Below are positions 1 to 39,699 of a DNA stretch of 39,699 nucleotides, in pieces. The translations under genes and the position numbers were made by a program. The stretch is from a virus, in the UHGV virus genome UHGV-0270985. One strand, 5' to 3'. The notes beneath the pieces are model-generated. The model made no database searches. It saw only the letters and a program-made list of their open reading frames with translations, and was not told the origin of the DNA. Numbering within the stretch: position 1 is the stretch's first letter; the number at the start of each line of letters is the position of its first letter.

Positions 1-1009
1 AGTTCGTTCTTTGTCCCTCAATAAGCAGGCCATCACACTCAAATCGCGGCTCATTAATTTCCGCCGTTTTCAGTTCGCCAGATTTGTTGATATATGTTGC
101 CGTTGATGCGCGACTGAAATTAATCTGTTTATCACTGGCAACCTGAACCACATTATCGCCAATCTTCACTTTTTTATAACCCGGAGAATAGCCCGTAATC
201 ATATCCAGCGAATCATTAAAGGGTATCCACACATCCGGCAGCGGCTGTAAAACATATCTGTACGGCTCTGCTGTCTGGTTTGCGTATTCTCTGGCAGCAT
301 CTTCACTTGCTTTTGCTGCCGTCTGGCTTGCTGCCGATGCTTTCGCCGAGTTCGCCGCCGCTGTTTCGCTCACCTTTGCGTTGGCTTCACTGTCTTTGGC
401 ATTCGTCTCACTGGTTTTCGCTGCCGTCTGGCTGGATTTTGCGTTTTTTTCGCTGGCCTTTGTGGCTGTCTCGCTATTTTTCGCGTTGGTTTCTGATTTT
501 TTGGCTGCTGTCGCGGAGTTTGCCGATGCAGTCTGCGAGGCCGCTGCCGCCTGTGCGCTGTTAGCTGCATTCGTTTCTGAGGTTTTCGCCGCATTCTTCG
601 ATGAGGCTGCTGCCGTTTCGGATTTCTTTGCCGCCGCTGCACTCTGTGATGACGCTCCGGCATGACGTGCCACTTCATTCACCATCAGCTCAAAACGGCG
701 CAGTGCCTCCGGACGGGCATCATCCTCCGTCATGGCACCGAGAAAATCATTCAGCGTACCTGGTCTGGAACCTTCATAGACGGTAATGGTCCCGGCATGT
801 GAAGGTGGAAAACCTTCAACCAGCAGGGTGACGCTGTACTGGCCATACTCAACATCCATGCTGTAACGCCCGGCTTCATCCGGATTTTCAGAGGCCACCG
901 TGTTCACCACCACCGTGCTGCTGGTCCGTCTGGCCTTCAGCACAATGGTGCAGTTCTGTACTGGTTTTCCTGTGCCATCTTTAAGCACGCCAGAAATTTT
1001 TACTGTCAT
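1..1009 (-). CDS. stf: side tail fibre protein Stf, N-terminal ~336 codons; the gene runs off the window start
   Basis: Minus-strand ATG at 1007-1009, open frame to position 1. Translation starts MTVKISGVLKDGTGKPVQNCTIVLKARR..., matching the lambda Stf N-terminus from memory, followed by an Ala/Lys/Ser/Glu/Thr-rich heptad-repeat shaft. Not in the ORF track because no stop lies in the window. Confidence 0.8.
   Translation of the reverse strand, partial: MTVKISGVLKDGTGKPVQNCTIVLKARRTSSTVVVNTVASENPDEAGRYSMDVEYGQYSVTLLVEGFPPSHAGTITVYEGSRPGTLNDFLGAMTEDDARPEALRRFELMVNEVARHAGASSQSAAAAKKSETAAASSKNAAKTSETNAANSAQAAAASQTASANSATAAKKSETNAKNSETATKASEKNAKSSQTAAKTSETNAKDSEANAKVSETAAANSAKASAASQTAAKASEDAAREYANQTAEPYRYVLQPLPDVWIPFNDSLDMITGYSPGYKKVKIGDNVVQVASDKQINFSRASTATYINKSGELKTAEINEPRFECDGLLIEGQRTN
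330..690 (-). repeat. imperfect 21-bp tandem repeats encoding heptad repeats (consensus roughly A-K-x-S-E-T-N) of the Stf shaft
   Basis: Periodic GCx/AAA/TCx/GAA/ACx codon pattern visible directly; it generates the spurious ORFs in three other frames over 280-786. Confidence 0.6.
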
Positions 1010-20251: not shown

Positions 20252-20791
20252 ATGGATATTAAAGATAAAATCAATACCATTTTGTTATGTGACATTGCCA
20301 TCCACCTAGGTATCGAAACTGATATTGATCCACAGCTTGTTAAATATGCTGTGTCATCTGGTAATGATTGGGTTATCAAGGCCGAATATTCACATTTGGA
20401 TGTTGACGAACCAAGTAAAGAAGATCGTGATTTTGTTACTGCTGTCTTGAATATGTATCGCGGACTTTCCAATGCTTTCAGGAAACTTAGTGATGACGAG
20501 CAAAAAGAATTAGTCCGTGACCATCATCTAAAAATACATGATGGGGCAATTCAGCTCCCAGGTTTCGACGGTAATAATGAATGCGATTACTTCAGTATCA
20601 TTGAGGCATATCAGAAAATTGATCGCTTCCCCGAACAGAAACAGCCCATTGCCAATACTCATTCACGTACAGAACATCTCTATAACGCAATGCTTGATGA
20701 GTTTAAGAAAATTGACGCTGTAAATCGAAGCTGGGATTTATCGAAGGAAGAACTGGCATCCATTCTTTCCACAGCTCCACGCAGTTTCTAA
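20252..20791 (+). CDS. moron gene; product weakly resembles the YfbU (UPF0304) family
   Basis: 179 aa on the opposite strand to the late operon, own ribosome-binding site (GAGGG), visibly AT-rich against the flanking phage genes. Resemblance to E. coli YfbU (LPGFDG..., ...THSRTEHLY... segments) is recalled, not searched. Confidence 0.55.
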   Translation: MDIKDKINTILLCDIAIHLGIETDIDPQLVKYAVSSGNDWVIKAEYSHLDVDEPSKEDRDFVTAVLNMYRGLSNAFRKLSDDEQKELVRDHHLKIHDGAIQLPGFDGNNECDYFSIIEAYQKIDRFPEQKQPIANTHSRTEHLYNAMLDEFKKIDAVNRSWDLSKEELASILSTAPRSF

Positions 20792-22850: not shown

Positions 22851-23291
22851 AGCCTCACCTCCGCAGCGAACGGATGGCGTAGTTATAAGGGGAGCGAAAA
22901 AGAAAGAATGCGCGATTGCGCAATATGGTAACGTCAGGGTATTATCCACTGGCTGAATAGATCACTTCACGTTTTTTGTTCCTTGCCGCCCGTATCCATA
23001 TGCGGGCTTTTTTTTGCATGTAAAAAGGCCCCAACACATGTGCGTGGGGCCTGAGAGTATACATGGTTTCAGTCAACTGCATGGTGCCGGGTGCCTCCCG
23101 GTGAATTCAGTACCAGCACCTGAATCCGCGATTATCCCATATACCTACTCGCTGATTGCCCCTCCGCACAGGGGGATTCACCATGCCAGTTTCTTTTAAC
23201 AAACTCCCCGCAAAACAGACAACTGTCAACCGTCTGAATTGTGAGACATTTAAAAAAAAGGCCCGCAAAAGCGAGCCGGGAAAAATAAGTC

Positions 23292-23368
23292 TGGCGCGTT
23301 GTACTGGATTCGAACCAGTGACCGATTGCTTAGAAGGCAATTGCTCTGTCCGGTTGAGCTAACAACGC
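23292..23368 (-). tRNA. argO: tRNA-Arg (anticodon UCU), argO-like
   Basis: Manual fold of the reverse complement: acceptor GCGTTGT/ACAACGC, D-arm GCTC...GAGC, anticodon stem ATTGC/GCAAT with loop CTTCTAA, T-arm ACTGG-TTCGAAT-CCAGT, 3' GCCA. Confidence 0.85.
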
Positions 23369-23381
23369 AGGGTACAGATAA

Positions 23382-23458
23382 TGGACCGCCATCGAGGACT
23401 CGAACCCCGCGCAACCAGCTTCGAAGGCTGGTGCTCTATCCTGATGAGCTAATGGCGG
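23382..23458 (-). tRNA. argN: tRNA-Arg (anticodon UCG), argN-like
   Basis: Manual fold: acceptor CCGCCAT/ATGGCGG, anticodon stem CCAGC/GCTGG with loop CTTCGAA, T-loop TTCGAGT, 3' TCCA. Confidence 0.75.
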
Positions 23459-23465
23459 TATGTGA

Positions 23466-23541
23466 TGGTGGCCCTTGCTGGATTTGAACCAGCGACCTGG
23501 CGATTATGAGTCGCTCGCTCTCACCTCTGAGCTAAAGGGCC
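23466..23541 (-). tRNA. ileZ: tRNA with CAU anticodon, most likely lysidine-dependent tRNA-Ile2 (ileZ/ileX-like); tRNA-Met cannot be excluded from the anticodon alone
   Basis: Manual fold: acceptor GGCCCTT/AAGGGCC, anticodon loop CTCATAA, T-loop TTCAAAT; matches the E. coli ileX layout from memory. Confidence 0.75.
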
Positions 23542-26300: not shown

Positions 26301-26456
26301 TTACTCCTCAGGTTCGTAGACTGTGAAGACAGCGACCTCCGTCTGGCCGGTTCGGATTCGTACCTCGCAGAGGTCTTTCCTCGTTACCAGTGCCGTCACT
26401 ATGACGGTTAAACAGATGACGATCAGGGCGATTAACATCGCCTTTTGCTGCTTCAT
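26301..26456 (-). CDS. hok: Hok/Gef-family type I toxin (HokD/RelF-like)
   Basis: 51 aa from ATG 26454-26456: MKQQKAMLIALIVICLTVIVTALVTRKDLCEVRIRTGQTEVAVFTVYEPEE; single TM helix and the conserved CE(I/V)R motif. Confidence 0.85.
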   Translation of the reverse strand: MKQQKAMLIALIVICLTVIVTALVTRKDLCEVRIRTGQTEVAVFTVYEPEE

Positions 26457-26747
26457 AGCCTGCTTCTCCTTGCCTTTCGGCACGTAAGAGGCTAACCTAC
26501 GTGTGTAGAGCATAGATATGGCCTCAGATTAATGTTAAGCGTCTTGCCGGACGCGTAATGTTAACTGGGGCTTTTCTCTATCTGCCTTTTGGTGTTCATG
26601 CCTGAGACAGATAGCCTCAAGCACCCGCTGCAATTCTACTTAACTCTCCTTTTCCCGCAAACCGTTTTTATCCCCAGCGGCAAATCGAATACACCACCAG
26701 CGCCACCGCCATCGCAATTCCTACCGTTGTTAATGCTTCAGGCCAGG

Positions 26748-30806: not shown

Positions 30807-31232
30807 TTAGTGCATCACCACAGCATTCCCTGCCGGGCCGCCGCGATTCATCTGGTCATACAAAACAACCGCTGACGCAACAAAATCATCGACATCCTTC
30901 ACCAGCCGATCCCTCCGTTCGACGATCTCACGGTAATATTCAGAACTGTGGCTGCGCATACGGGCCACCAGCAAAGGCGGCATCGCCTTTTCGATCGCCG
31001 GTAACAGAGCCTGCATTTTTTCAACAGCATCAGGGGTGTCTTTATCCAGCCAACGGAAAATTTTCTGGGTATTACGGGCCAGGGCTTCCGGATGGCTGTC
31101 GTCATACAGTTCCGGGAACGTCATTCCCAGCTCGAAATACGCTTTGGTAATTTTCGCAGCCGATACTTTTTCGCCGTCCGGATGCGCCCAGGCATTCATC
31201 GCCATGCGGATGTGTTCATGCTTGATTTTCAT
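30807..31232 (-). CDS. YdaT-like protein in the cII position
   Basis: 141 aa starting MKIKHEHI; start overlaps the cro-like stop (ATGA); family call from recalled Rac ydaS/ydaT synteny. Confidence 0.5.
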   Translation of the reverse strand: MKIKHEHIRMAMNAWAHPDGEKVSAAKITKAYFELGMTFPELYDDSHPEALARNTQKIFRWLDKDTPDAVEKMQALLPAIEKAMPPLLVARMRSHSSEYYREIVERRDRLVKDVDDFVASAVVLYDQMNRGGPAGNAVVMH

Positions 31233-31483
31233 GAATCAACTCCCATCAGCTTTTTCGTAGTAGTTTTATTCCTGCCAATAGTTAAAATTGCATCGGCAGA
31301 AAATAATCCGTTTGATGCAAGAGCGATTTTTTCAGCGTAATTTGTTTCGCCGGTATATTCTGTGCGAGGCAATTTTCCGTTATCCATCCATTTATAGATT
31401 GCTCTTTGGCTGACACCACAAACGTCGGCCACAACAGCAACGCGAACAGTTTTGATTACATCTTCAAGTGTTTTCTGGTTCAT
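31229..31483 (-). CDS. Cro-like HTH regulator (DicC/YdaS-like)
   Basis: Start at ATG 31481-31483 with a GAGGGTGA ribosome-binding site; 84 aa with HTH segment VADVCGVSQRAIYKWM; divergent from the repressor gene. Confidence 0.7.
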   Translation of the reverse strand: MNQKTLEDVIKTVRVAVVADVCGVSQRAIYKWMDNGKLPRTEYTGETNYAEKIALASNGLFSADAILTIGRNKTTTKKLMGVDS

Positions 31484-31499
31484 ATCACCCTCACAATGT

Positions 31500-31545
31500 G
31501 AACTTTGAGTACATGCTATAACAGAACTGACAGTACATTCAAGAG
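31500..31545. promoter_or_regulatory. right operator/promoter region between the cro-like and repressor genes
   Basis: 79-bp divergent intergenic region with two copies of AGTACAT(TC), at about 31508 and 31532. Confidence 0.5.
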
Positions 31546-31562
31546 CGAATATCATTGAACTT

Positions 31563-31982
31563 ATGGTTCATGAAGATAAAGCGCGTAAAGAGTTCGCCAG
31601 TAGGCTTGCGCTAGCCTGTGAAAACGCTGGTTATGAACAACATGGAAGGCAGGCAGAAATTGCCCGTCGAATGAAATTAACACCAAAAGCGGTTAGCAAA
31701 TGGTTTAATGGCGAAACAATTCCTCGCCGGGAGAAATTAAGGGAATTAGCAACACTAATAGGAACAACACCAACCTATCTTTTGGGAGAGGATACAGAAG
31801 AAAGTGGACAGGTACGTTTCTATCAGGAGTTAAATCCAAGACAAAAAATCATCATTGACCTTCTGGACGAGCTCCCTGACAGTGAGACAGATGAACTTTT
31901 AAAAACTCTTGAAGAGAAAAAACAGAAGTACAATGCAATTTACGAAGAGTTAGCACGAAAGAAAAAACAAAAAGCCTCTTAA
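31563..31982 (+). CDS. dicA: prophage repressor, DicA/RacR-like (XRE HTH, no S24 peptidase domain)
   Basis: 139 aa; N-terminal HTH (QAEIARRMKLTPKAVSKWFNGETIPRREKLRELATLIGTTPTYLL) and a C-terminal helical region resembling DicA (DLLDELPDSETDELLKTLEEKK); no Ala-Gly/Ser-Lys autocleavage motifs. Confidence 0.7.
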   Translation: MVHEDKARKEFASRLALACENAGYEQHGRQAEIARRMKLTPKAVSKWFNGETIPRREKLRELATLIGTTPTYLLGEDTEESGQVRFYQELNPRQKIIIDLLDELPDSETDELLKTLEEKKQKYNAIYEELARKKKQKAS

Positions 31983-32054
31983 ACCAGCATAAATCCGGTA
32001 GCGCCTTCCTCCGGGTTTGTGCTTCACTTTATCCCATCTCATTTTTTTACACAC

Positions 32055-32100
32055 AGAATGTACTAAAAGTACTTTACAACAATGAACGCAAAGTACATTA
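32055..32100. promoter_or_regulatory. left operator/promoter region (PdicB-like) downstream of the repressor gene
   Basis: Same 9-mer as the right operator: AGTACATTC occurs as its reverse complement gaatgtact (32057-32065), plus agtact and aagtacatt nearby. Confidence 0.45.
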
Positions 32101-32279
32101 TATACCTGCCACCCACCCCGCCCCACAGAATGCAGGGCAATACTTCGAGTTACCAGGCAGTGGTCAGGGGTTAAGTAGCCAGCCCGAGGCGTAAGAACAT
32201 GACGGCAGGGTTCAACTTTAATAACTATGCAGCAGGTTTTTGTTCCGCTACCCCGGCGTTAAGGGGAAATGAGGTCAGC

Positions 32280-32435
32280 ATGGATACTATCGATCTTGGC
32301 AACAGCGAATCTCTGGTATGTGGCGTGTTCCCCAACCAGGACGGCACGTTCACCGCAATGACGTATACCAAAAGCAAAACGTTTAAAACCGAAAATGGTG
32401 CCCGTCGCTGGCTGGAAAGAAACTCAGGTGAGTGA
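32280..32435 (+). CDS. ydfA: YdfA-like 51-aa protein
   Basis: Internal ATG with ribosome-binding site (aaggggaaatgaggtcagcATG); MDTIDLGNSESLVCGVFPNQDGTFTAMTYTKSKTFKTENGARRWLERNSGE; size and order match the Qin ydfA-ydfB-ydfC-dicF-dicB operon. Confidence 0.55.
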   Translation: MDTIDLGNSESLVCGVFPNQDGTFTAMTYTKSKTFKTENGARRWLERNSGE

Positions 32436-32436
32436 T

Positions 32437-32565
32437 ATGGATTTCGACACAATCATGGAAAAGGCTTACGAAGAATACTTCGAAGGCCTTGCCGAAGACG
32501 AAGAAGCTCTCAGCTTCAGTGAGTTTAAACAGGCGCTTTCCAGTTCGGCAAAATCTAACGGCTGA
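32437..32565 (+). CDS. ydfB: YdfB-like 42-aa acidic protein
   Basis: ATG 2 nt after the ydfA-like stop; MDFDTIMEKAYEEYFEGLAEDEEALSFSEFKQALSSSAKSNG. Below the ORF-track cut-off. Confidence 0.5.
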   Translation: MDFDTIMEKAYEEYFEGLAEDEEALSFSEFKQALSSSAKSNG

Positions 32566-32594
32566 TAAGCGAAACAGCACCGCGAGGAATCAGT

Positions 32595-32813
32595 ATGCAG
32601 AAACGAGAACCCGTCATCATCGCGCCAGACTATACCGATGATGAACTTTATGAGTGGATGCGCCAGAAAATTAATGCAGCGCAGGATCTGAAATGGGCTA
32701 ATGAAGCCAGGGCTAAGCAGGCTGAAAATCTGTCCTCTCTGGAGCAGGATATCACCAATCTGGAAAAAGCAGCGGCATTAACCATTGCCAGAATGATTAC
32801 ATACCCGCGTTAA
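32595..32813 (+). CDS. ydfC: YdfC-like 72-aa protein
   Basis: ORF track; size and position match ydfC. Confidence 0.55.
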   Translation: MQKREPVIIAPDYTDDELYEWMRQKINAAQDLKWANEARAKQAENLSSLEQDITNLEKAAALTIARMITYPR

Positions 32814-33154
32814 TAGCTAACCAACGAAGCTAAGGTTGGTAATTAAGGAGTTCTCCACGGGTGAGGTGGAGTGCGTGCGCCGGACACGGGTGAGCATCCG
32901 GCACTGACAGTTTACTGAAAGGATATTTCCCTGAAAAGTCAGACCATAACGCGAAAGCGCACGGCGAGGTAGCTGGTTCATAGATAGCCTGTCGTTAAAT
33001 TTTCGTCGACCGTGCGCTTCCGGTTGTGGCAATCCGCGAAATGGCGCGGCGGTAAGTATGGCGGGGTTATTCCTTCCCCCGTTGAGGACACCGGGTTGTC
33101 AGGTTGACCATACGCTTAAGTGACAACCCCGCTGCAACGCCCTCTGTTATCAAT

Positions 33155-33207
33155 TTTCTGGTGACGTTTGGCGGTATCAGTTTTACTCCGTGACTGCTCT
33201 GCCGCCC
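33155..33207 (+). ncRNA. dicF: DicF small RNA (53 nt, Hfq-dependent cell-division inhibitor)
   Basis: tttctggtgacgtttggcggtatcagttttactccgtgactgctctgccgccc followed by TTTTT; matches the DicF sequence as I recall it, including the GGCGG...CCGCC terminator stem. Confidence 0.8.
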
Positions 33208-33381
33208 TTTTTAAAGTGAATTTTGTGATGCGGTGAATGCGGCTGAGCGCACGCGGAACAGTTAAAACCAAAAACAGTGTTATGGGTGGATTCTCTGTAT
33301 CCGGCGTTAATTGTTAACTGGTTAACGTCACCTGGAGGCACCAGGCACTGCATCACAAAATTCATTGTTGAGGACGCGATA

Positions 33382-33570
33382 ATGAAAACGTTATTACCAA
33401 ACGTTAATACGTCTGAAGGTTGTTTTGAAATTGGTGTCACTATCAGTAACCCAGTATTTACTGAAGATGCCATTAACAAGAGAAAACAAGAACGGGAGCT
33501 ATTAAATAAAATATGCATTGTTTCAATGCTGGCTCGTTTACGTCTGATGCCAAAAGGATGTGCACAATGA
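33382..33570 (+). CDS. dicB: cell-division inhibitor DicB
   Basis: 62 aa from the internal ATG: MKTLLPNVNTSEGCFEIGVTISNPVFTEDAINKRKQERELLNKICIVSMLARLRLMPKGCAQ; downstream of DicF as in Qin. Confidence 0.8.
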   Translation: MKTLLPNVNTSEGCFEIGVTISNPVFTEDAINKRKQERELLNKICIVSMLARLRLMPKGCAQ

Positions 33571-33758
33571 ATTCAGCATTTGTGCTTGTTCTGACAGTTT
33601 TTCTTGTTTCCGGAGAGCCAGTTGATATTGCAGTCAGTGTTCACAGGACAATGCAGGAGTGTATGACTGCAGCAACCGAACAGAAAATTCCCGGTAACTG
33701 TTACCCGGTCGATAAAGTTATTCACCAGGATAATATCGAAATCCCGGCAGGTCTTTAA
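33567..33758 (+). CDS. ydfD: YdfD-like small membrane/lysis protein
   Basis: 63 aa from ATG overlapping the dicB stop (ATGA); N-terminal hydrophobic segment MNSAFVLVLTVFLVSG. Confidence 0.65.
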   Translation: MNSAFVLVLTVFLVSGEPVDIAVSVHRTMQECMTAATEQKIPGNCYPVDKVIHQDNIEIPAGL

Positions 33759-33850
33759 AACAGTTCCGTAATAAATATCCGGTTTCATTCTTATATGCCA
33801 GCAATGGCAGGGATTTGTTCATCCTTAAATCTGTCATGAGGTTAAAACAA

Positions 33851-36322
33851 ATGAGTAAAGTCTTTATTTGCGCCGCTATTCCTGACGAACTGGCAACAAG
33901 GGAAGAAGGCGCTGTGGCTGTAGCCACAGCCATTGAAGCTGGCGACGAACGCCGTGCTCGAGCAAAATTTCACTGGCAATTCCTGGAACATTATCCGGCT
34001 GCTCAGGACTGCGCTTATAAATTTATTGTCTGCGAGGATAAACCTGGCATACCCCGCCCTGCCCTCGATTCATGGGATGCTGAATATATGCAGGAAAACC
34101 GCTGGGATGAGGATTCTGCTTCTTTTGTCCCGGTTGAGACTGAATCCGATCTGATGAACGTCACTTTTGACAAGCTGGCCCCTGAAGTACAGAACGCTCT
34201 CATGGTTAAGTTCGACACATGTGAAAACATCACCGTTGATATGGTTATTAGCGCACAGGAATTGTTGCAGGAAGACATGGCAACATTCGACGGCCATATC
34301 GTTGAAGCGTTGATGAAAATGCCAGAAGTTAACGCCATGTATCCGGAGCTTAAGCTGCATGCCATCGGGTGGGTTAAGCATAAATGTAAGCCTGGTGCCA
34401 AATGGCCCGAAATTCAGGCAGAGATGCGCATCTGGAAAAAACGTCGCGAAGGTGAACGCAAGGAAGCCGGAAAATACACGTCTGTTGTTGATCTCGCCCG
34501 CGCCAGAGCCAATCAACAGCACACTGAAAATTCAACAGGAAAAATCAACCCGGTCATTGCTGCCATTCATCGCGAATACAAGCAGACATGGAAAACACTG
34601 GATGACGAACTGGCCTACGCTCTCTGGCCTGGTGATGTGGATGCCGGAAACATTGACGGCAGCATCCATCGCTGGGCAAAAAATGAAGTTATCGACAACG
34701 ACCGCGAAGACTGGAAGCGTATCTCGGCATCAATGCGCAAACAGCCTGATGCCCTTCGCTACGACCGCCAGACTATTTTTGGCCTTGTCCGTGAACGTCC
34801 GATCGACATTCACAAAGACCCTGTGGCACTGAACAAATACATTACTGAATACCTGACTACAAAGGGCGTGTTTGAAGATGAAGGAACAAATCAGAGCGCA
34901 ACTGATACTCTCTCGTCGCCAATACCAGAAACTGATGCAGTGGAAACGGCAATTCCGGACAACGAAAAAACCGAATGCAAAGTGGAAGTCGAACCATCTG
35001 TAGAACGTGAGGGGCCGTTCTACTTCCTCTTCACCGACAAGGATGGCGAAAAATACGGTCGCGCAAACAAACTTTCTGGTCTGGATAAGGCGCTGTCTGC
35101 TGGGGCTACTGAAATCACGAAAGAAGAATATTTCGCCCGCAAAAACGGTACATACTCAGGTTCACAACAAAATACTGGTGCATCTGACACGACCGCACAA
35201 CCAGGGTCAGTAAAAGTTACCGCTGACGAAGTAAACAAAATTATGCAGGCAGCCAATATCAGCCAGCCTGACGCCGATGAACTGCTTGCAGTATCACGTG
35301 GTGAATTTGTTGAAGGGATTAGCGACCCGAATGATCCGAAATGGGTTAAGGGGAACCAGACCCGCGATTCTGTGAACCAGAACCAGCAAGAAACGGAACA
35401 GAACGACCAGAAAGCGGAACAAAACAGCCCAAATGCGTTACAAAACGAGCCAGAAACGAAACAGCCTGAATCAGTGGCGCAACAGGAAGTGGAAAAAGTC
35501 TGCACCGCCTGCGGTCAGACCGGCGGCGGCAACTACCCTGATTGTGGCGCGGTGATGGGCGACGCAACATACCAGGAAACATTCGATGAAGAGTATCAGG
35601 TTGAAGTTCAGGAAGATGATCCGGAGGAAATGGAAGGCGCTGAACATCCACACAAGGAGAACACTGGCGGCAATCAGCATCACGATAGCGATAATGAAAC
35701 TGGCGAGACGGCAGATCACTCAATTAAGGTGAACGGTCATCAAGAAATCACATCCACCAGCAGGACGTGTGACCATCTAATGATCGACCTTGAAACCATG
35801 GGAAAAAATCCTGATGCCCCGATCATCTCAATAGGTGCAATATTTTTCGATCCGCAAACCGGAGATATGGGACCGGAATTTAGTAAGACTATCGATCTGG
35901 AAACTGCTGGCGGAGTCATTGATCGGGACACCATTAAATGGTGGCTTAAGCAATCACGCGAAGCGCAATCTGCCATTATGACCGATGAAATCCCGTTAGA
36001 TGATGCACTGTTACAATTGCGGGAATTTATCGACGAAAACTCCGGTGAATTTTTTGTTCAGGTCTGGGGAAATGGAGCCAACTTCGACAACACGATTTTG
36101 CGCCGTTCATACGAACGGCAGGGGATCCCCTGCCCGTGGCGTTACTACAACGATCGCGATGTACGCACAATCGTTGAGCTGGGGAAGGCCATAGACTTCG
36201 ATGCCAGAACGGCTATTCCATTCGAAGGTGAGCGCCATAATGCACTTGATGACGCCCGTTACCAGGCAAAATACGTTTCAGCTATCTGGCAAAAACTGAT
36301 CCCGAGTCAGGCTGATTTTTAA
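33851..36322 (+). CDS. large exonuclease-domain protein (often annotated exodeoxyribonuclease VIII); C-terminal DnaQ-like DEDDh 3'-5' exonuclease fold
   Basis: ATG at 33851 (MSKVFICAA) with a GAGG ribosome-binding site. Acidic Gln/Glu/Asn-rich linker (residues ~560-650). C-terminal motifs Exo I MIDLETMG, Exo II WGNGANFDNTIL, Exo III HNALDDARYQAKY. Confidence 0.75.
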   Translation: MSKVFICAAIPDELATREEGAVAVATAIEAGDERRARAKFHWQFLEHYPAAQDCAYKFIVCEDKPGIPRPALDSWDAEYMQENRWDEDSASFVPVETESDLMNVTFDKLAPEVQNALMVKFDTCENITVDMVISAQELLQEDMATFDGHIVEALMKMPEVNAMYPELKLHAIGWVKHKCKPGAKWPEIQAEMRIWKKRREGERKEAGKYTSVVDLARARANQQHTENSTGKINPVIAAIHREYKQTWKTLDDELAYALWPGDVDAGNIDGSIHRWAKNEVIDNDREDWKRISASMRKQPDALRYDRQTIFGLVRERPIDIHKDPVALNKYITEYLTTKGVFEDEGTNQSATDTLSSPIPETDAVETAIPDNEKTECKVEVEPSVEREGPFYFLFTDKDGEKYGRANKLSGLDKALSAGATEITKEEYFARKNGTYSGSQQNTGASDTTAQPGSVKVTADEVNKIMQAANISQPDADELLAVSRGEFVEGISDPNDPKWVKGNQTRDSVNQNQQETEQNDQKAEQNSPNALQNEPETKQPESVAQQEVEKVCTACGQTGGGNYPDCGAVMGDATYQETFDEEYQVEVQEDDPEEMEGAEHPHKENTGGNQHHDSDNETGETADHSIKVNGHQEITSTSRTCDHLMIDLETMGKNPDAPIISIGAIFFDPQTGDMGPEFSKTIDLETAGGVIDRDTIKWWLKQSREAQSAIMTDEIPLDDALLQLREFIDENSGEFFVQVWGNGANFDNTILRRSYERQGIPCPWRYYNDRDVRTIVELGKAIDFDARTAIPFEGERHNALDDARYQAKYVSAIWQKLIPSQADF

Positions 36323-36380
36323 TGTTCAACCCTAATTGCCGCTAACCGTATATAGTTAGCGGCGGTTATGAGATATAGCT

Positions 36381-36584
36381 ATGAGTAGCTTATTTTTAAC
36401 CGAAGATGAATTGCTAATATTAACGGGCTGCAAATATGCAAGCCACCAGCGAAAATGGTTAACGGAAAACGGGCTTCCGTTCTATACCAATCGTAGTGGC
36501 AAACCGATTGTCAGCCGGGATCTATTTACCTGCAATAAAACTTTACCACCACGCGAGGTAGAGCCGAATTTTGGTGCAATCTGA
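36381..36584 (+). CDS. xis: excisionase-like protein
   Basis: 67-aa ORF immediately upstream of int; its stop overlaps the int start codon. Confidence 0.6.
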   Translation: MSSLFLTEDELLILTGCKYASHQRKWLTENGLPFYTNRSGKPIVSRDLFTCNKTLPPREVEPNFGAI

Positions 36585-37609
36585 TGGGAAGACGAAGGAA
36601 AAATCCTGAACACGAAAAACTACCTCCAAATGTATATCCAAATAAATATAGTTATGTATGGAAACCAACATCCAGAGAATCTGTCACACTAACCGCCATC
36701 AAGGATGGTTTAGCTGCTTTATGGAAAAGGTATGAGGAAACTGTAAATAATCGCGATCGCGCAATGACATTCGGTCGCTTGTGGGAAAAATTCCTCGCCA
36801 GCGCCTATTACAGTGACCTCAGTCCAAGAACACAAAAAGATTATCTGCAACATCAAAAAAAGTTGCTTGCCGTATTCGGTAAGGTGCCGGCAGATTCCAT
36901 AAAACCAGAACACATCCGTCGATACATGGACCAGAGAGGGGGGCAGAGTAAAACGCAAGCCAACCATGAAAAAAGCAGTATGTCCCGCGTTTACAGTTGG
37001 GGATATGAGCGAGGGTACGTGAAGGCTAACCCATGTGCAGGTGTAAGTAAATTCAAGGCCAAAAACCGCGAACGATATGTAACCGACAAAGAATACCAGG
37101 CAGTATTAAGCGTTGCACCTCTTCCTGTTTTTATCGCAATGGAAATTGCCTATCTGTGTGCAGCGAGGGTTTCCGATGTGTTATCGCTGAAATGGGAGCA
37201 GATTGGAAACGACGGGATCTTTATCCAGCAAGGGAAAACAGGGAAAAAACAGATAAAAGCATGGAGTCCACGATTACAGGCGGCGATCGAAAAAGCAAAA
37301 CAGTTACCAACATCCGCCTATGTAATCAGCAATCAATACGGCAACCGATATATGTACAAAGGCTTTAACGAAATGTGGGTAGAAGCAAGAAATCGCGCAG
37401 GCAAAATTTCAGGTATTTTAACCGACTTCACCTTTCATGATCTGAAGGCGAAAGGAATTTCAGACTATGAAGGAAGCAGCCGGGATAAGCAACTTTTCTC
37501 TGGTCACAAAACCGAGGGGCAAGTGCTAATCTATGACAGGAAGGTTAAAGTTTCACCGACACTTGATGTCCCGTTACCTGAAAATATTCCAAGAAAATAT
37601 TCCAAGTAA
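36584..37609 (+). CDS. int: tyrosine integrase (lambda Int family)
   Basis: 341 aa; N-terminal arm-binding-like region, C-terminal catalytic region with HDLKAKG and GHKTEGQVLIYDR (His-x-x-Arg and Tyr nucleophile context). Confidence 0.9.
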   Translation: MGRRRKNPEHEKLPPNVYPNKYSYVWKPTSRESVTLTAIKDGLAALWKRYEETVNNRDRAMTFGRLWEKFLASAYYSDLSPRTQKDYLQHQKKLLAVFGKVPADSIKPEHIRRYMDQRGGQSKTQANHEKSSMSRVYSWGYERGYVKANPCAGVSKFKAKNRERYVTDKEYQAVLSVAPLPVFIAMEIAYLCAARVSDVLSLKWEQIGNDGIFIQQGKTGKKQIKAWSPRLQAAIEKAKQLPTSAYVISNQYGNRYMYKGFNEMWVEARNRAGKISGILTDFTFHDLKAKGISDYEGSSRDKQLFSGHKTEGQVLIYDRKVKVSPTLDVPLPENIPRKYSK

Positions 37610-37661
37610 TTCCAAGTGTGATTTTTGTCACTGACTTAATGATGTGTAAGTGATTGAATTT

Positions 37662-37723
37662 TGGCGGAGAGAGGGGGATTTGAACCCCCGGTGGAGTTGC
37701 CCCCACTCCGGTTTTCGAGACCG
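37662..37723 (-). other. 3' portion (anticodon stem-loop to CCA end) of a tRNA-Ser(CGA) gene, the attachment-site core
   Basis: Reverse complement reads CGGTCTCGAAAACCGGAGTGGGGGCAACTCCACCGGGGGTTCAAATCCCCCTCTCTCCGCCA: anticodon loop CTCGAAA, long variable arm, T-arm, acceptor 3' strand plus CCA. No complementary GGAGAGA 5' acceptor strand follows at higher coordinates, so the tRNA is not intact here. Confidence 0.6.
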
Positions 37724-38369: not shown

Positions 38370-38648
38370 TTAAAACCACTCCCTGAGCGGGCGCTCTGGT
38401 GTAACCACCCACTCACGGAACACGGATTCATCAAAGCCATCGTCAAGAAGACGAATATTAACAAAGTACCCTTCGTCTCGCGTGTATTCAGGCTCCCCGT
38501 CAGCAGAAACACCTGACTCACTGAACGTAAAACCAATCTCATCAACCAGAACGGCATTCTGCAGCTCTTCGTCCTCTTCCCAGTTAAGTTTCCTGAGAAA
38601 TGCCCTGAAATCTGCTTTATCACTGAAACGCAACGTGAAATCTCTCAC
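38370..38648 (-). CDS. hypothetical 92-aa acidic protein
   Basis: Overlaps the upstream gene by 4 nt, suggesting translational coupling. Confidence 0.45.
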   Translation of the reverse strand: MRDFTLRFSDKADFRAFLRKLNWEEDEELQNAVLVDEIGFTFSESGVSADGEPEYTRDEGYFVNIRLLDDGFDESVFREWVVTPERPLREWF

Positions 38649-39699
38649 TCCACAACCTCCCCAAGCTGCGCATCTGTTAGCTCTTTATGCCAGAGACGAA
38701 AATTCCTCACATGCCCAAATAAATGGCGTAATCCTGCTGTAGTTTGTCCACCAATGCGAATGGTTGCTGTACTCCGGATATATTCCCATTTGGTTTTAGT
38801 TTCGCTGCTTAACTTACCGTTACTGACTACACATGTGGACCGTTCGGACTTTACCCGCATACCAATAAGCATTTTTTCCAGCCCGGCATTTTCATTTATT
38901 CGTCGGTTTGAACCACCTATATCACAATACGGAAAACCGTCGTACCCACCTGATGAACCAAACCCCATTACGATCCCCGCATCTGCCTGATGCCGGTATG
39001 TGTCAAAAACACGCGGTGCTGCATTTGGCGTTTTATACCAGTTCTTATGTACCTCACAAAGAACCGTAAAAGGAAGATTATAAAGATTATTCTTAATCGG
39101 AACTGTAACCATATCGCTTGCCCGCGTTACCGGTGCCGTCCCCGTAACAATAAAAGATGATGCGCCTGTACCAGCCTCAATCTGTGGAGTGGTTACATCG
39201 AGATAATCCCCTGATGCAACCATCTGCCCTGTATCCGGAGAATACTGGACAAAACCACCAACCGTATTTTCTGTTGTATCTGCTTTTAATGTAGCCTCAA
39301 AAAATATCCAGCCAGTTGCATCATCCTTAACAGACCTTGCTGTAACACGGCTTGTCTGACCTGTCTTGCTAATTATGCGGGTGGTAAGGTTCAGGTTTGC
39401 TGCTCCTATTGATGTCCTTACCTCCCCATCATAATGTTCAAATAAAATACGAACGGCGATATTATCAACTTCACTTTTTACCCGACAGGATATAGTTACA
39501 TGCTTTTCGTCCCCTGAAGTATCAACCCCTCCGGTACTCGAATACAGTCCGATAATGGTATGCGCTTTACTTGTACCAACAATCGAATCCTGTACGACAA
39601 ACCGGCCATAATTAAACCCGAAACTATCTGTGCCTGTTTCTGTAACGTCCAGTGAAGTTGACTTATTCCACTTCGAAGGGTCTGTACTGTTCTGGAAGA
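38645..39699 (-). CDS. hypothetical protein of at least 350 aa, 5' end beyond the window; beta-rich, possibly a tail fibre / receptor-binding protein
   Basis: The minus-strand frame stays open from the stop at 38645 to the window end, well beyond the track's Met at about 39223; hand translation of 39224-39699 gave no stop. Gly/Ser/Thr-rich; family not recognised. Confidence 0.4.
   Translation of the reverse strand, partial: FQNSTDPSKWNKSTSLDVTETGTDSFGFNYGRFVVQDSIVGTSKAHTIIGLYSSTGGVDTSGDEKHVTISCRVKSEVDNIAVRILFEHYDGEVRTSIGAANLNLTTRIISKTGQTSRVTARSVKDDATGWIFFEATLKADTTENTVGGFVQYSPDTGQMVASGDYLDVTTPQIEAGTGASSFIVTGTAPVTRASDMVTVPIKNNLYNLPFTVLCEVHKNWYKTPNAAPRVFDTYRHQADAGIVMGFGSSGGYDGFPYCDIGGSNRRINENAGLEKMLIGMRVKSERSTCVVSNGKLSSETKTKWEYIRSTATIRIGGQTTAGLRHLFGHVRNFRLWHKELTDAQLGEVVE

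What the first reader, a model, noticed from the sequence alone, without database searches (positions are those of the whole stretch)
32280..33758. Intact Qin-type dicB operon (ydfA/B/C, DicF, dicB, ydfD) in an apparently complete prophage
In K-12 this operon is part of a cryptic prophage remnant. Here the same small ORFs (51, 42, 72 aa), the DicF sRNA and DicB/YdfD sit downstream of a DicA-like repressor in a prophage with complete packaging, head, tail and lysis modules. This is a chance to see the operon in its functional phage context, where DicB and DicF are thought to act in superinfection exclusion and host division control.
Basis: partly seen in the sequence, partly recalled or inferred. 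Interest (0 to 1): 0.5.

Follow-up and report, generated by a model that had tools for sequence, protein, structure and literature searches.

The report
dicBF operon in a complete phage
The region is a genuine, intact copy of the well-studied E. coli dicBF (ydfABC-DicF-dicB-ydfD) cell-division-inhibitor operon, sitting as the early-left operon of a complete lambda-like phage genome; this arrangement is very common and has already been described in working phages, so it is ordinary.

Summary
Observation confirmed at the stated coordinates. The genes are ydfA (32280-32435), ydfB (32437-32565), ydfC (32595-32813), DicF (33155-33207; Rfam 76.7 bits), dicB (33382-33570) and ydfD (33567-33758). Window 32242-34617 is 98.6% identical to K-12 Qin. 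DicF, dicB and ydfD are base-for-base identical to K-12.

The phage context is also real. The window is one circularly permuted whole genome with an attP core (37654-37723, the 3' part of tRNA-Ser). It has intact packaging, head, tail, lysis, Q, replication, immunity, exonuclease and integrase genes.

- The repressor is only a distant DicA relative (29% identity).
- The Cro-like protein is unrelated to DicC.
- There is no Rem antirepressor.

So the Qin-type operon is fused to a different immunity region, with five 17-bp ATGWAC-N5-GTWCAT operators.

It is not new. Plaque-forming phage Tritos carries the same immunity-plus-dicBF segment, and the literature already notes dicBF in functional phage mEp460_ev081. 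4775 of 5426 complete E. coli genomes have a match.

One side observation: the DicF-dicB spacer is a sub-threshold structural relative of the prophage sRNA STnc100.

The parts
30807..31232 (-). CII-like / YdaT-family regulator gene (141 aa), downstream of cro-like gene in the rightward early operon
   Evidence: Pfam YdaT_toxin E 2.7e-10; PHROG 163 'CII-like transcriptional activator' E 8e-48
31229..31483 (-). Cro-like HTH gene (84 aa; the ORF could also start at 31555). Not related to DicC
   Evidence: Pfam HTH_17; PHROG 35; no BLASTP alignment to K-12 DicC; PGAP calls a 255-nt CDS in the identical copy
31498..31571 (.). Three predicted 17-bp operators (31498-31514, 31522-31538, 31555-31571; consensus ATGWAC-N5-GTWCAT) in the 79-bp divergent promoter region between cro-like and repressor genes (OR-like)
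   Evidence: Repeat family D1. Pattern search: 12 matches with up to 2 mismatches in the window against 4.4 +/- 2.2 expected, and 5 of them lie in the two regions flanking the repressor gene. Promoter-like site CTGACA-17-TATCAT at 31527-31555. Function is inferred.
31563..31982 (+). Prophage repressor (139 aa): N-terminal HTH_3, short C-terminal helical part, no peptidase S24 domain. A distant DicA homologue with different immunity
   Evidence: Pfam HTH_3; 29% identity to DicA over 112 aa, E 5e-15; NCBIfam DicA subfamily 56.8 bits, below cut-off 101; PHROG 5736
32058..32101 (+). Predicted PL-like promoter of the dicBF operon (TTTACA-17-CATTAT, 32073-32101), overlapped by two operators (32058-32074, 32082-32098). 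The inferred transcription start is near 32108
   Evidence: Promoter scan (which finds no more sites overall than in shuffles); operator matches with 1 and 0 mismatches; direct repeats D1/D3. Inferred, not shown.
32280..32435 (+). ydfA (51 aa, DUF1391)
   Evidence: Pfam PF07151 E 9e-28; 49/51 identical to K-12 YdfA; GAGG Shine-Dalgarno 5 nt upstream
32437..32565 (+). ydfB (42 aa)
   Evidence: 41/42 identical to K-12 YdfB; PGAP 'protein YdfB' in the identical copy
32595..32813 (+). ydfC (72 aa)
   Evidence: 70/72 identical to K-12 YdfC; PGAP 'protein YdfC'
32944..33030 (+). Long RNA stem (perfect 10-bp core 32955-32964 / 33010-33019) upstream of DicF. Probable RNase III site giving the 190-nt DicF precursor, whose predicted 5' end is about 33018
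   Evidence: MFE folds; arm complementarity verified. RNase III generation of a 190-nt species was shown for the 98.4%-identical K-12 spacer (PMC10448788; identity). The position here is inferred.
33155..33207 (+). DicF sRNA (53 nt), with terminator hairpin and a U-tract following
   Evidence: Rfam RF00039 76.7 bits, E 2e-15; 53/53 identical to K-12 dicF
33205..33414 (+). Structured DicF-dicB spacer: sub-threshold STnc100-like element. A 21-22-bp closing stem (33214-33235 / 33346-33366) ends 3 nt before the dicB Shine-Dalgarno sequence
   Evidence: Rfam RF02076 35.8 bits (gathering 47), E 1.2e-5 in a 2-kb search. Same hit, 31-46 bits, next to DicF in 8/8 variant viral contigs. 27/29 base pairs kept, 12 with changes on both sides, against the true STnc100 of this window. 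Folds.
33382..33570 (+). dicB (62 aa), cell-division inhibitor
   Evidence: Pfam PF05358 E 2e-40; NCBIfam NF049927 132.8 bits, above cut-off 100; 100% nucleotide identity to K-12
33567..33758 (+). ydfD (63 aa, DUF1482), lysis protein / IspG inhibitor in K-12
   Evidence: Pfam PF07358 E 4e-26; 100% nucleotide identity to K-12; function from PMC8835842 (abstract seen)
33842..36322 (+). Full-length 826-aa exonuclease gene. K-12 ydfE is its 5' fragment, cut by IS2E
   Evidence: The K-12 alignment ends at window 34617 = K-12 locus position 18845, where IS2E begins; Pfam Rv2179c-like exonuclease domain at residues 645-816, E 1.5e-67
36381..37609 (+). DUF4224 gene (36381-36584, in the excisionase position) and tyrosine integrase (36584-37609, 341 aa)
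   Evidence: Pfam DUF4224 and Phage_integrase, profile positions 25-165 of 172. The identical DNA is flagged 'frameshifted' at the extreme 3' end by PGAP.
37654..37723 (.). attP core: a ~70-bp overlap between the alignments to the attR and attL sides of the CP028320 prophage. It contains the 3' part of tRNA-Ser
   Evidence: blastn overlap of the two alignments; junction sequences and tRNA-Ser comparison

Best explanation
This is an orthologous, intact copy of the Qin dicBF operon. It acts as the first part of the early-left (PL-type) operon of a complete lambdoid temperate siphovirus.

The order on the + strand is: repressor, operator/promoter, ydfA-ydfB-ydfC, a structured spacer with DicF, dicB-ydfD, an 826-aa exonuclease, a DUF4224 gene (excisionase position), int, attP.

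In a lysogen, the short DicA-type repressor (no autocleavage domain) most likely binds two 17-bp operators that overlap the promoter, and keeps the operon off. This step is inferred.

On derepression, one long transcript is made. RNase III cuts a long stem upstream of DicF. RNase E then trims to the 53-nt DicF, whose 3' end is its own intrinsic terminator. These steps are shown in K-12 for near-identical RNA and inferred here. Read-through transcripts carry dicB and ydfD behind a second long stem.

DicF blocks ftsZ and manX translation. DicB with MinC blocks FtsZ-ring assembly and ManYZ. Both are shown in K-12. The infected or induced cell therefore stops dividing and becomes refractory to phages that inject through ManYZ. 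This is the functional counterpart of lambda Kil in the lambda PL operon.

The operon is a mobile module. Only the segment from 38 nt upstream of ydfA onward is Qin-like, and the immunity region comes from elsewhere.
For: - Identity of the parts: Rfam DicF 76.7 bits; Pfam DicB, DUF1391 and DUF1482; 98.6% nucleotide identity to Qin over 2376 bp, with DicF, dicB and ydfD identical.
- Position as a PL-type operon: same strand as the repressor and immediately downstream of it, running into exonuclease, DUF4224, int and attP.
- Regulation: five operator-like sites are confined to the two flanks of the repressor gene, two of them over a -35/-10 match. The repressor lacks an S24 domain.
- Processing and function of the near-identical K-12 RNA and proteins: PMC10448788 and PMC6832061. 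The spacer is 98.4% identical to K-12 and strongly structured, z = -5.9.
- Complete phage: all structural, lysis, Q and replication ORFs are intact. The window closes on itself across an intact 687-aa tail-fibre ORF, with an attP core.
- Phage Tritos carries the same immunity+dicBF segment (96-99% identity) and forms plaques. Its dicBF genes are not among those expressed 5-fold or more above background in the lysogen (PMC9928086). That fits repression during lysogeny.
- Modularity: in 120 viral contigs, DicB+YdfD follow DicF in 101/105, but this window's Cro is present in only 7/101.
Against: - No expression data exist for this exact genome. The transcription start, operator binding and processing sites are all inferred.
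- The promoter scan finds no more sites than shuffled sequence overall.
- DicF ends in an intrinsic terminator. No N-like antiterminator or nut/put element was identified, so how much transcription reaches dicB, the exonuclease and int is unknown.
- No antirepressor (no Rem) and no LexA box were found, so the induction route is unknown.
- PGAP flags the identical integrase as frameshifted at its 3' end.
- In K-12, DicF also accumulates in stationary phase without full induction, so expression need not be strictly lytic.
Confidence: 0.85

Rival explanations
1. The operon works mainly as a lysogenic-conversion (moron-like) module. Low-level, stationary-phase or stochastic expression from the prophage protects the lysogen against superinfection through ManYZ and adjusts host metabolism, rather than serving lytic growth.
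For: In K-12, transient dicBF expression protects against lambda through DicB-MinC inhibition of ManYZ (PMC6832061). DicF accumulates in stationary phase, and about 1% of cells derepress dicBp spontaneously (PMC10448788). The module is retained in 4775 of 5426 complete E. coli genomes, often in defective prophages.
Against: It sits directly behind a repressor-controlled promoter in the PL position, with operators over the promoter. It has no independent promoter or terminator pair of the kind morons usually have. The Tritos dicBF genes are absent from the list of prophage genes expressed 5-fold or more above background in LF82. This reading is not mutually exclusive with the main explanation.
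Confidence: 0.3
2. The element is not a functional phage: it is a defective prophage that merely looks complete, so the operon is in the same 'cryptic' situation as in Qin.
For: PGAP marks the identical integrase as frameshifted. No plaque or virion data exist for this exact sequence. No antirepressor or SOS box was found.
Against: The window is the circular attP form. Its two ends are contiguous inside an intact tail-fibre ORF, and a single att core joins the int side to the tail-fibre side. That requires excision, or a phage-derived circular or concatemeric molecule. All essential ORFs are full length. The integrase domain is matched up to profile position 165 of 172. Relatives from the phage collection share 73% of the queried 25 kb at 97% identity, and Tritos forms plaques.
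Confidence: 0.07
3. The small ORFs and the sRNA only resemble ydfABC-dicF-dicB by chance or by convergence.
For: None found.
Against: 98.6% nucleotide identity over 2376 bp to Qin, with identical gene order and spacing, plus family-model matches above the curated thresholds.
Confidence: 0.01

Closest known systems
dicBF operon of cryptic prophage Qin, E. coli K-12 (ydfA-ydfB-ydfC-dicF-dicB-ydfD-ydfE)
   Same: Same genes, order and spacing. 98.6% nucleotide identity from 38 nt upstream of ydfA to the point where IS2E interrupts ydfE in K-12. DicF, dicB and ydfD are identical. The structured spacer is 98.4% identical.
   Different: Upstream control is different: the repressor is 29% identical to DicA, there is no DicC homologue, there is no Rem, and the promoter, operators and most of the 5' leader differ. 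Downstream, the exonuclease gene is full length (826 aa) and is followed by DUF4224, int and attP, instead of IS2 and pseudogenes. The host element is a complete phage rather than a remnant.
Escherichia phage Tritos (OV696610; prophage 3 of AIEC LF82)
   Same: Window 30818-36330 (CII-like, Cro-like, repressor, ydfABC, DicF, dicB, ydfD, exonuclease) aligns at 96.2%, and 31200-33900 at 98.9%. DicF is annotated in the record. Tritos is a lambdoid siphovirus shown to make virions and plaques (PMC9928086).
   Different: The rest of the genome is mosaic. It has a different integrase and att site, different head and packaging genes, a different Q/lysis region, and extra csp/ImmA genes.
Escherichia phage mEp460_ev081 and other dicBF-carrying temperate coliphages (vB_EcoS-689R5, PhiR42_1, HannyBb, PPompW/Stx2a phages)
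   Same: They carry ydfC/DicF/dicB/ydfD followed by the exonuclease gene, at 94-99% identity. mEp460_ev081 is cited in the literature as a functional phage with dicB, dicF, dicAC and rem.
   Different: mEp460_ev081 is reported to keep the DicA/DicC/Rem control set. The window has another immunity type and no Rem.
Phage lambda PL operon with kil
   Same: Same position and logic: an early-left operon under repressor/operator control, running toward xis-int, which encodes an FtsZ-ring inhibitor that causes filamentation on induction. The Kil function comes from PMC3961180 (title and abstract listed).
   Different: No sequence relation between DicB/DicF and Kil. An sRNA is part of the operon. No N gene or nut site was recognised. 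The repressor lacks the RecA-cleavable domain.
STnc100 (RF02076) / PasD prophage sRNAs
   Same: The DicF-dicB spacer matches the STnc100 covariance model over its first ~160 positions. The long closing helix and the CACCNGGAGGCACCNGGCAC hairpin are kept through compensatory changes.
   Different: The score is below Rfam's gathering threshold (31-46 bits against 47). The element lies inside an operon between DicF and dicB, not upstream of the lysis genes. It lacks the STnc100 terminator hairpin. No evidence exists that it is a separate sRNA.

Membership tests
DicF RNA (Rfam RF00039) | Covariance-model score at or above the gathering score of 48 bits | tested here: met
   76.7 bits, E 2.2e-15, full model 1-52
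DicF RNA (Rfam RF00039) | Same sequence as the experimentally defined 53-nt K-12 DicF, including the 5' targeting region and the terminator hairpin | tested here: met
   53/53 identical
DicF RNA (Rfam RF00039) | Produced by RNase III/RNase E processing of the operon transcript | not testable with these tools
   Only shown for K-12 (PMC10448788). The flanking RNA is 98.4% identical.
DicB (Pfam PF05358 / NCBIfam NF049927) | Profile score above the curated cut-off over the full length | tested here: met
   Pfam 136.8 bits (cut-off 27), residues 1-62 of 62; NCBIfam 132.8 bits (cut-off 100); identical to K-12 DicB
YdfA (DUF1391) and YdfD (DUF1482) | Profile score above Pfam's gathering score | tested here: met
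   96.2 bits and 91.1 bits
YdfB and YdfC | Orthology to the K-12 proteins (no profile family is available) | tested here: met
   41/42 and 70/72 identical; no Pfam or NCBIfam model matched
Qin-type dicBF operon | Gene order ydfA-ydfB-ydfC-dicF-dicB-ydfD with the same spacing | tested here: met
   Collinear alignment without rearrangement, with a single 1-nt indel in the spacer
Qin-type dicBF operon | Control by DicA (repressor), DicC (Cro analogue) and Rem (antirepressor) | tested here: not met
   The repressor is 29% identical to DicA and scores below the NCBIfam DicA cut-off. There is no DicC or Rem homologue in the window.
Lambdoid early-left (PL-type) operon | Lies between the repressor gene and int/att on the repressor's strand, with repeated operators over its promoter | tested here: met
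   Gene map. Operators 32058 and 32082 overlap TTTACA-17-CATTAT. Binding was not tested.
Lambdoid early-left (PL-type) operon | N/nut or put-type antitermination allowing read-through of internal terminators | tested here: inconclusive
   No N-like gene between the repressor and ydfA. Rfam found nothing else in 31900-33900 at E <= 1 apart from DicF and the STnc100-like hit. Rfam may hold no nut/put models.
Complete (non-defective) temperate phage | Intact terminase, portal, protease, capsid, connector, tail, tape measure, tip, fibre, holin/lysozyme/Rz, Q, replication, repressor/cro and integrase genes | tested here: met
   ORF sizes in the window equal those annotated in the 99.7-99.8% identical prophage. 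PHROG O-like initiator. Tail-fibre ORF intact across the window ends. The integrase 3' end is flagged by PGAP.
Complete (non-defective) temperate phage | Excised/circular form with attP | tested here: met
   Window ends are contiguous in CP028320. A single ~70-bp core joins the attR-side and attL-side sequences.
Complete (non-defective) temperate phage | Produces infectious virions | not testable with these tools
   Shown only for the relative Tritos
STnc100 (Rfam RF02076), for the DicF-dicB spacer | Score at or above the gathering score of 47 bits | tested here: not met
   35.8 bits here; 31.1-46.0 bits in eight variant loci. The E-values are significant but the curated threshold is not reached.

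The most novel reading that the evidence does not exclude
The most novel reading concerns the RNA around DicF, not the operon itself. DicF may be only the middle part of a ~430-nt mobile structured-RNA cassette (about 32930-33366). The cassette would comprise an upstream RNase III stem, DicF, and a diverged STnc100/PasD-family domain closed by a 21-bp helix that ends 3 nt before the dicB ribosome-binding site. That domain would be a previously unrecognised third branch of the STnc100/PasD family. It would act as a processing and translation-control element that separates DicF from the dicB-ydfD message, and perhaps also yields a further sRNA.
Probability: 0.4. Interest if true: 0.3.

Novelty: already known. 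Interest (0 to 1): 0.12.

Why it matters
It matters little beyond annotation. [quoted passage not shown] The window does give a clean example of three points.

- The operon is the proximal part of a PL-type early operon that continues into a full-length exonuclease gene (K-12 ydfE is its stump), xis-like and int genes.
- The operon moves as a module between different immunity regions, so its regulation by DicA/DicC/Rem in K-12 is not universal.
- The RNA around DicF is a conserved structured cassette with an STnc100-like domain, which may be worth a look by people studying DicF processing.

Tried and rejected
- Rem, DicC, YdfX and YdfW were searched in the window by tblastn. There was no Rem or DicC, and only a weak YdfX/YdaT-family match.
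- A LexA-box search (CTGT-N8-ACAG) gave a single chance-level hit inside the portal gene. No SOS-controlled antirepressor can therefore be proposed.
- A PHROG scan of ten early-region and orphan ORFs found no recognisable antirepressor.
- A permissive Rfam search of 31900-33900 for nut/put-like or other RNAs in the 5' leader and the ydfC-DicF spacer found nothing apart from DicF and the STnc100-like hit. The 172-nt leader folds, but I have no comparative support for a structure.
- Covariation within the DicF-dicB spacer could not be tested, because the paired regions are nearly invariant in the 120 viral contigs. I did not build my own covariance model, because the near-identical sequences would add little to the Rfam result.
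- The N-terminally extended 78-aa version of ydfA (32199-32435, as annotated in Tritos) was considered and rejected. Qin homology and a good Shine-Dalgarno sequence begin just upstream of the 32280 ATG.
- The antisense ORF 33183-33518 (111 aa) and the minus-strand promoter-like hits were treated as chance.
- I first assumed the window was an integrated prophage identical to CP028320. The alignment showed it is circularly permuted and differs in the tRNA region.
Full report

Yes. The sequence and ORF list show, on the + strand:
- ydfA, 32280-32435, 51 aa
- ydfB, 32437-32565, 42 aa
- ydfC, 32595-32813, 72 aa
- dicB, 33382-33570, 62 aa
- ydfD, 33567-33758, 63 aa, whose start overlaps the dicB stop as ATGA

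Rfam places DicF at 33156-33207 with 76.7 bits (gathering score 48, E 2e-15). Pfam gives DUF1391 for YdfA, DicB for DicB and DUF1482 for YdfD, all far above the curated cut-offs. NCBIfam's DicB model is also passed.

A direct blastn against the K-12 Qin region (fetched) aligns window 32242-34617 with MG1655 1648470-1650844 at 98.6% over 2376 bp. DicF (53/53), dicB and ydfD are identical base for base. YdfA, YdfB and YdfC differ by 2, 1 and 2 residues. The 568-nt ydfC-dicB spacer is 98.4% identical.

**2. What surrounds it?**

The window is 99.7-99.8% identical to a prophage of E. coli O18:H1 CFSAN067215 (NZ_CP028320), but in circularly permuted form. Window 1-37723 matches the prophage from the middle of its tail-fibre gene to attR. 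Window 37654-39699 matches the DNA that lies immediately to the left of window position 1 in that prophage.

The two alignments overlap by ~70 bp (37654-37723). This overlap is the att core and contains the 3' part of tRNA-Ser. Joining the window's end to its start restores an intact 687-aa tail-fibre ORF. The window is therefore one whole genome in the attP (excised, circular or concatemeric) form, not an integrated prophage.

ORFs for the following have the same lengths as in the PGAP annotation of the near-identical prophage:
- packaging and head: small and large terminase, HNH endonuclease, portal, protease, major capsid, connectors
- tail: tail tube, tape measure, tip proteins, J, Lom, fibre
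- lysis: holin, lysozyme, Rz-type protein
- other: Q, RusA, DUF968

The early region encodes an O-like initiator, a Ren-like protein, a CII-like (YdaT-family) protein and a Cro-like protein.

Downstream of ydfD come:
- an 826-aa exonuclease gene (33842-36322) with a C-terminal Rv2179c-like DEDD domain
- a DUF4224 gene in the excisionase position
- a 341-aa tyrosine integrase

The K-12 alignment stops exactly where IS2E interrupts ydfE. K-12 ydfE is thus the stump of this exonuclease gene.

One caveat: PGAP flags the identical integrase as frameshifted at its extreme 3' end. The Pfam catalytic domain is nevertheless matched up to position 165 of 172.

**3. How the control region differs from Qin**

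Nucleotide homology to Qin starts only 38 nt upstream of the ydfA ATG.
- The 139-aa repressor (31563-31982) has an HTH_3 domain and no peptidase S24 domain. It is 29% identical to DicA (E 5e-15). Its best NCBIfam hit is the DicA subfamily, but at 56.8 bits against a cut-off of 101.
- The divergent 84-aa Cro-like protein has no detectable similarity to DicC.
- Rem, the Qin antirepressor (PMC10448788), has no homologue in the window.
- No LexA box is present beyond one chance hit.

Repeat analysis and a pattern search reveal five 17-bp sites with the consensus ATGWAC-N5-GTWCAT. Three lie in the 79-bp divergent region between the cro-like and repressor genes (31498, 31522, 31555). Two lie downstream of the repressor gene (32058, 32082). 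In the whole window there are 12 matches with up to 2 mismatches, against 4.4 +/- 2.2 expected, and five of them fall in these two ~40-75-bp stretches.

The downstream pair overlaps a sigma-70-like site, TTTACA-17-CATTAT, at 32073-32101. This is the classical OR/OL layout of a lambdoid immunity region. I infer that the promoter at ~32073-32101 is the dicBp equivalent, with a transcription start near 32108 and a ~172-nt leader. It would be repressed by the 139-aa protein. None of this is shown experimentally.

**4. How it most likely works**

The operon occupies the PL position: same strand as the repressor gene, immediately downstream of it, and running toward xis-int-att. For the near-identical K-12 RNA, the following has been shown:
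- A polycistronic transcript starts upstream of ydfA.
- RNase III generates a 190-nt DicF species, and RNase E generates the 53-nt DicF.
- A ~1.1-kb ydfABC-DicF species and a ~1.6-kb species reaching ydfD exist (PMC10448788).

In the window, a strongly structured spacer (MFE z-score -5.9) contains a long stem whose perfect 10-bp core is 32955-32964/33010-33019. A 190-nt species ending at 33207 would begin at ~33018, inside the 3' arm. That fits an RNase III cut.

DicF ends in its hairpin followed by a U-tract, so dicB-ydfD and everything downstream depend on read-through. No N-like gene or known antitermination RNA was found, so this step is open.

The functions of the products are taken from K-12 work:
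- DicF represses ftsZ and manX.
- DicB with MinC blocks Z-ring assembly and ManYZ, giving filamentation and resistance to lambda (PMC6832061 and PMC10448788).
- YdfD is a lysis protein that inhibits IspG (PMC8835842, listed).

In a complete phage, the simplest reading is a host-takeover module expressed on derepression, analogous to lambda Kil.

The rival reading is a lysogen-protecting moron. It is not excluded, but it is disfavoured as the main role for two reasons. The operators sit over the promoter. And in LF82, the Tritos dicBF genes are not among prophage genes expressed 5-fold or more above background (PMC9928086).

**5. Comparison with what is known, and novelty**

The segment 31200-33900 has matches in 4775 of 5426 complete E. 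coli genomes, with a median of two places per genome. 264 genomes cover at least 80% of it. It also matches 60 phage records.
- Phage Tritos (OV696610) carries the same CII-like/Cro-like/repressor/ydfABC/DicF/dicB/ydfD/exonuclease block (98.9% over 31200-33900; 96.2% over 30818-36330). DicF is annotated in that record. Tritos is spontaneously induced, was imaged as a siphovirus and forms plaques.
- Ragunathan et al. 2023 explicitly remark that the functional phage mEp460_ev081 carries dicB, dicF, dicAC and rem.
- Phages such as vB_EcoS-689R5 share 73% of the queried 25 kb (window 14700-39699) at 97% identity.

In 120 IMG/VR contigs that contain a close DicF:
- DicB+YdfD follow in 101/105
- YdfA is present in 96/101
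- YdfB in 63/101
- YdfC in 56/101
- this window's Cro in only 7/101

So the module is combined with many immunity types. The finding is a correct annotation of a known, very common arrangement. Novelty: already known.

**6. Side observation inside the finding's coordinates**

With permissive thresholds, Rfam's STnc100 model (RF02076) matches 33205-33414, the spacer between DicF and dicB, at 35.8 bits (gathering score 47; E 1.2e-5 for a 2-kb search). A bona fide STnc100 (140 bits) lies elsewhere in the window, upstream of the holin gene (23016-23215, minus strand).

I compared the two model-guided alignments:
- The two sequences share only 64 of 164 model columns (39%).
- 27 of the 29 base pairs that are canonical in the true copy are also canonical in the spacer.
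- 12 of those pairs have changes on both sides.
- Caveat: both alignments were fitted to the model, which favours pairing.

The same sub-threshold hit (31-46 bits) lies directly after DicF in all eight sequence variants I tested from viral contigs. The element is closed by a 21-22-bp helix (33214-33235/33346-33366) that ends 3 nt before the dicB Shine-Dalgarno sequence.

Homology-block boundaries in the 120 contigs cluster at ~32930 on the left and ~33360 on the right. In a few contigs a different gene follows the helix, and in two of these isrK and C4 RNAs lie downstream. The conserved mobile unit therefore seems to be an RNA cassette of ~430 nt: RNase III stem, DicF, STnc100-like domain.

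A 2026 preprint links STnc100 and PasD as relatives and contains no mention of DicF or dicB. I could not test covariation within the cassette, because the paired regions are almost invariant. This is a modest lead, not a result.

**7. Verdict**

- Observation: confirmed.
- Interpretation: supported, with corrections. The repressor is a heteroimmune, only distantly DicA-like protein. There is no DicC or Rem. The window is the circular phage form rather than an integrated prophage.
- Mechanism: a PL-type early operon that delivers DicF and DicB on derepression (confidence 0.85). Promoter, operator binding, processing sites and read-through are inferred.
- Novelty: already known.
- Interest: 0.12.

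Noticed in passing
window 33205-33414 (+); also L096:4379-4576, L050:2065-2197 and six other loci: The spacer between DicF and dicB gives a consistent sub-threshold match to the prophage sRNA family STnc100 (31-46 bits, gathering score 47). A 21-bp closing helix and a CACCNGGAGGCACCNGGCAC hairpin are preserved through compensatory changes relative to the true STnc100 in the same genome.
   Followed up: partly
window ~32930-33366: Across 120 viral contigs, the homology block around DicF most often begins near 32930 or 32830-32870. In five contigs it ends at ~33360, right after the closing helix. This suggests a ~430-nt RNA cassette (RNase III stem + DicF + STnc100-like domain) that recombines independently of ydfABC and dicB.
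   Followed up: partly
L050:1796-1984 and L096:5462-5650: In two viral contigs (L050, L096) isrK and C4 antisense RNAs, the P1/P7-type antirepressor control RNAs, lie downstream of the DicF cassette; in a few contigs, these two among them, a different gene rather than dicB follows the closing helix.
   Followed up: no
window 37654-37723 and window ends (39699/1): The window is a circularly permuted complete phage genome. A single ~70-bp att core (the 3' part of tRNA-Ser) joins the int side to the tail-fibre side. The first and last bases are contiguous inside an intact 687-aa tail-fibre ORF (38645-39699 + 1-1009, minus strand).
   Followed up: yes
window 22884-23541 (-): Between Q and the holin gene lie three tRNA genes (Arg-UCU, Arg-UCG, and a CAU anticodon called Met by ARAGORN) and a full STnc100 (23016-23215, 140 bits). 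The otherwise 99.7%-identical prophage in CP028320 has a different set of four tRNAs (Gly, Thr, Lys, Ile) here. This is the only segment of the genome that does not align.
   Followed up: partly
window 26451-26626 (-): A sok antisense RNA (Rfam 117 bits), belonging to a hokD/sok type I toxin-antitoxin locus in the nin-like region, as in Qin. In phage Tritos, hokD is by far the most highly expressed prophage gene in lysogens (PMC9928086).
   Followed up: no
window 33842-36322 (+): The 826-aa 'exonuclease' is the full-length form of the K-12 pseudogene ydfE. Phage records label it exodeoxyribonuclease VIII (RecE). Its only recognisable domain is a C-terminal Rv2179c-like DEDD 3'-5' exonuclease (residues 645-816), so the RecE label may be a misnomer. 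The N-terminal ~640 residues have no family match.
   Followed up: no
window 36584-37609 (+): The integrase ORF (341 aa) is identical to a copy that PGAP marks as frameshifted at its extreme 3' end. A short duplicated motif (AATATTCCAAG) lies at the stop codon. The Pfam catalytic domain is matched up to profile position 165 of 172.
   Followed up: partly
window 31229-32101 and whole window: The induction route is unexplained. The repressor has no autocleavage domain, and no Rem-like or other recognisable antirepressor and no LexA box were found anywhere in the genome.
   Followed up: partly
window 20252-20791 (+): A YfbU-family gene (179 aa, PHROG 6084, unknown function) sits on the opposite strand between the HNH/terminase genes and the lysis genes. 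It looks like a moron with its own transcription unit.
   Followed up: no
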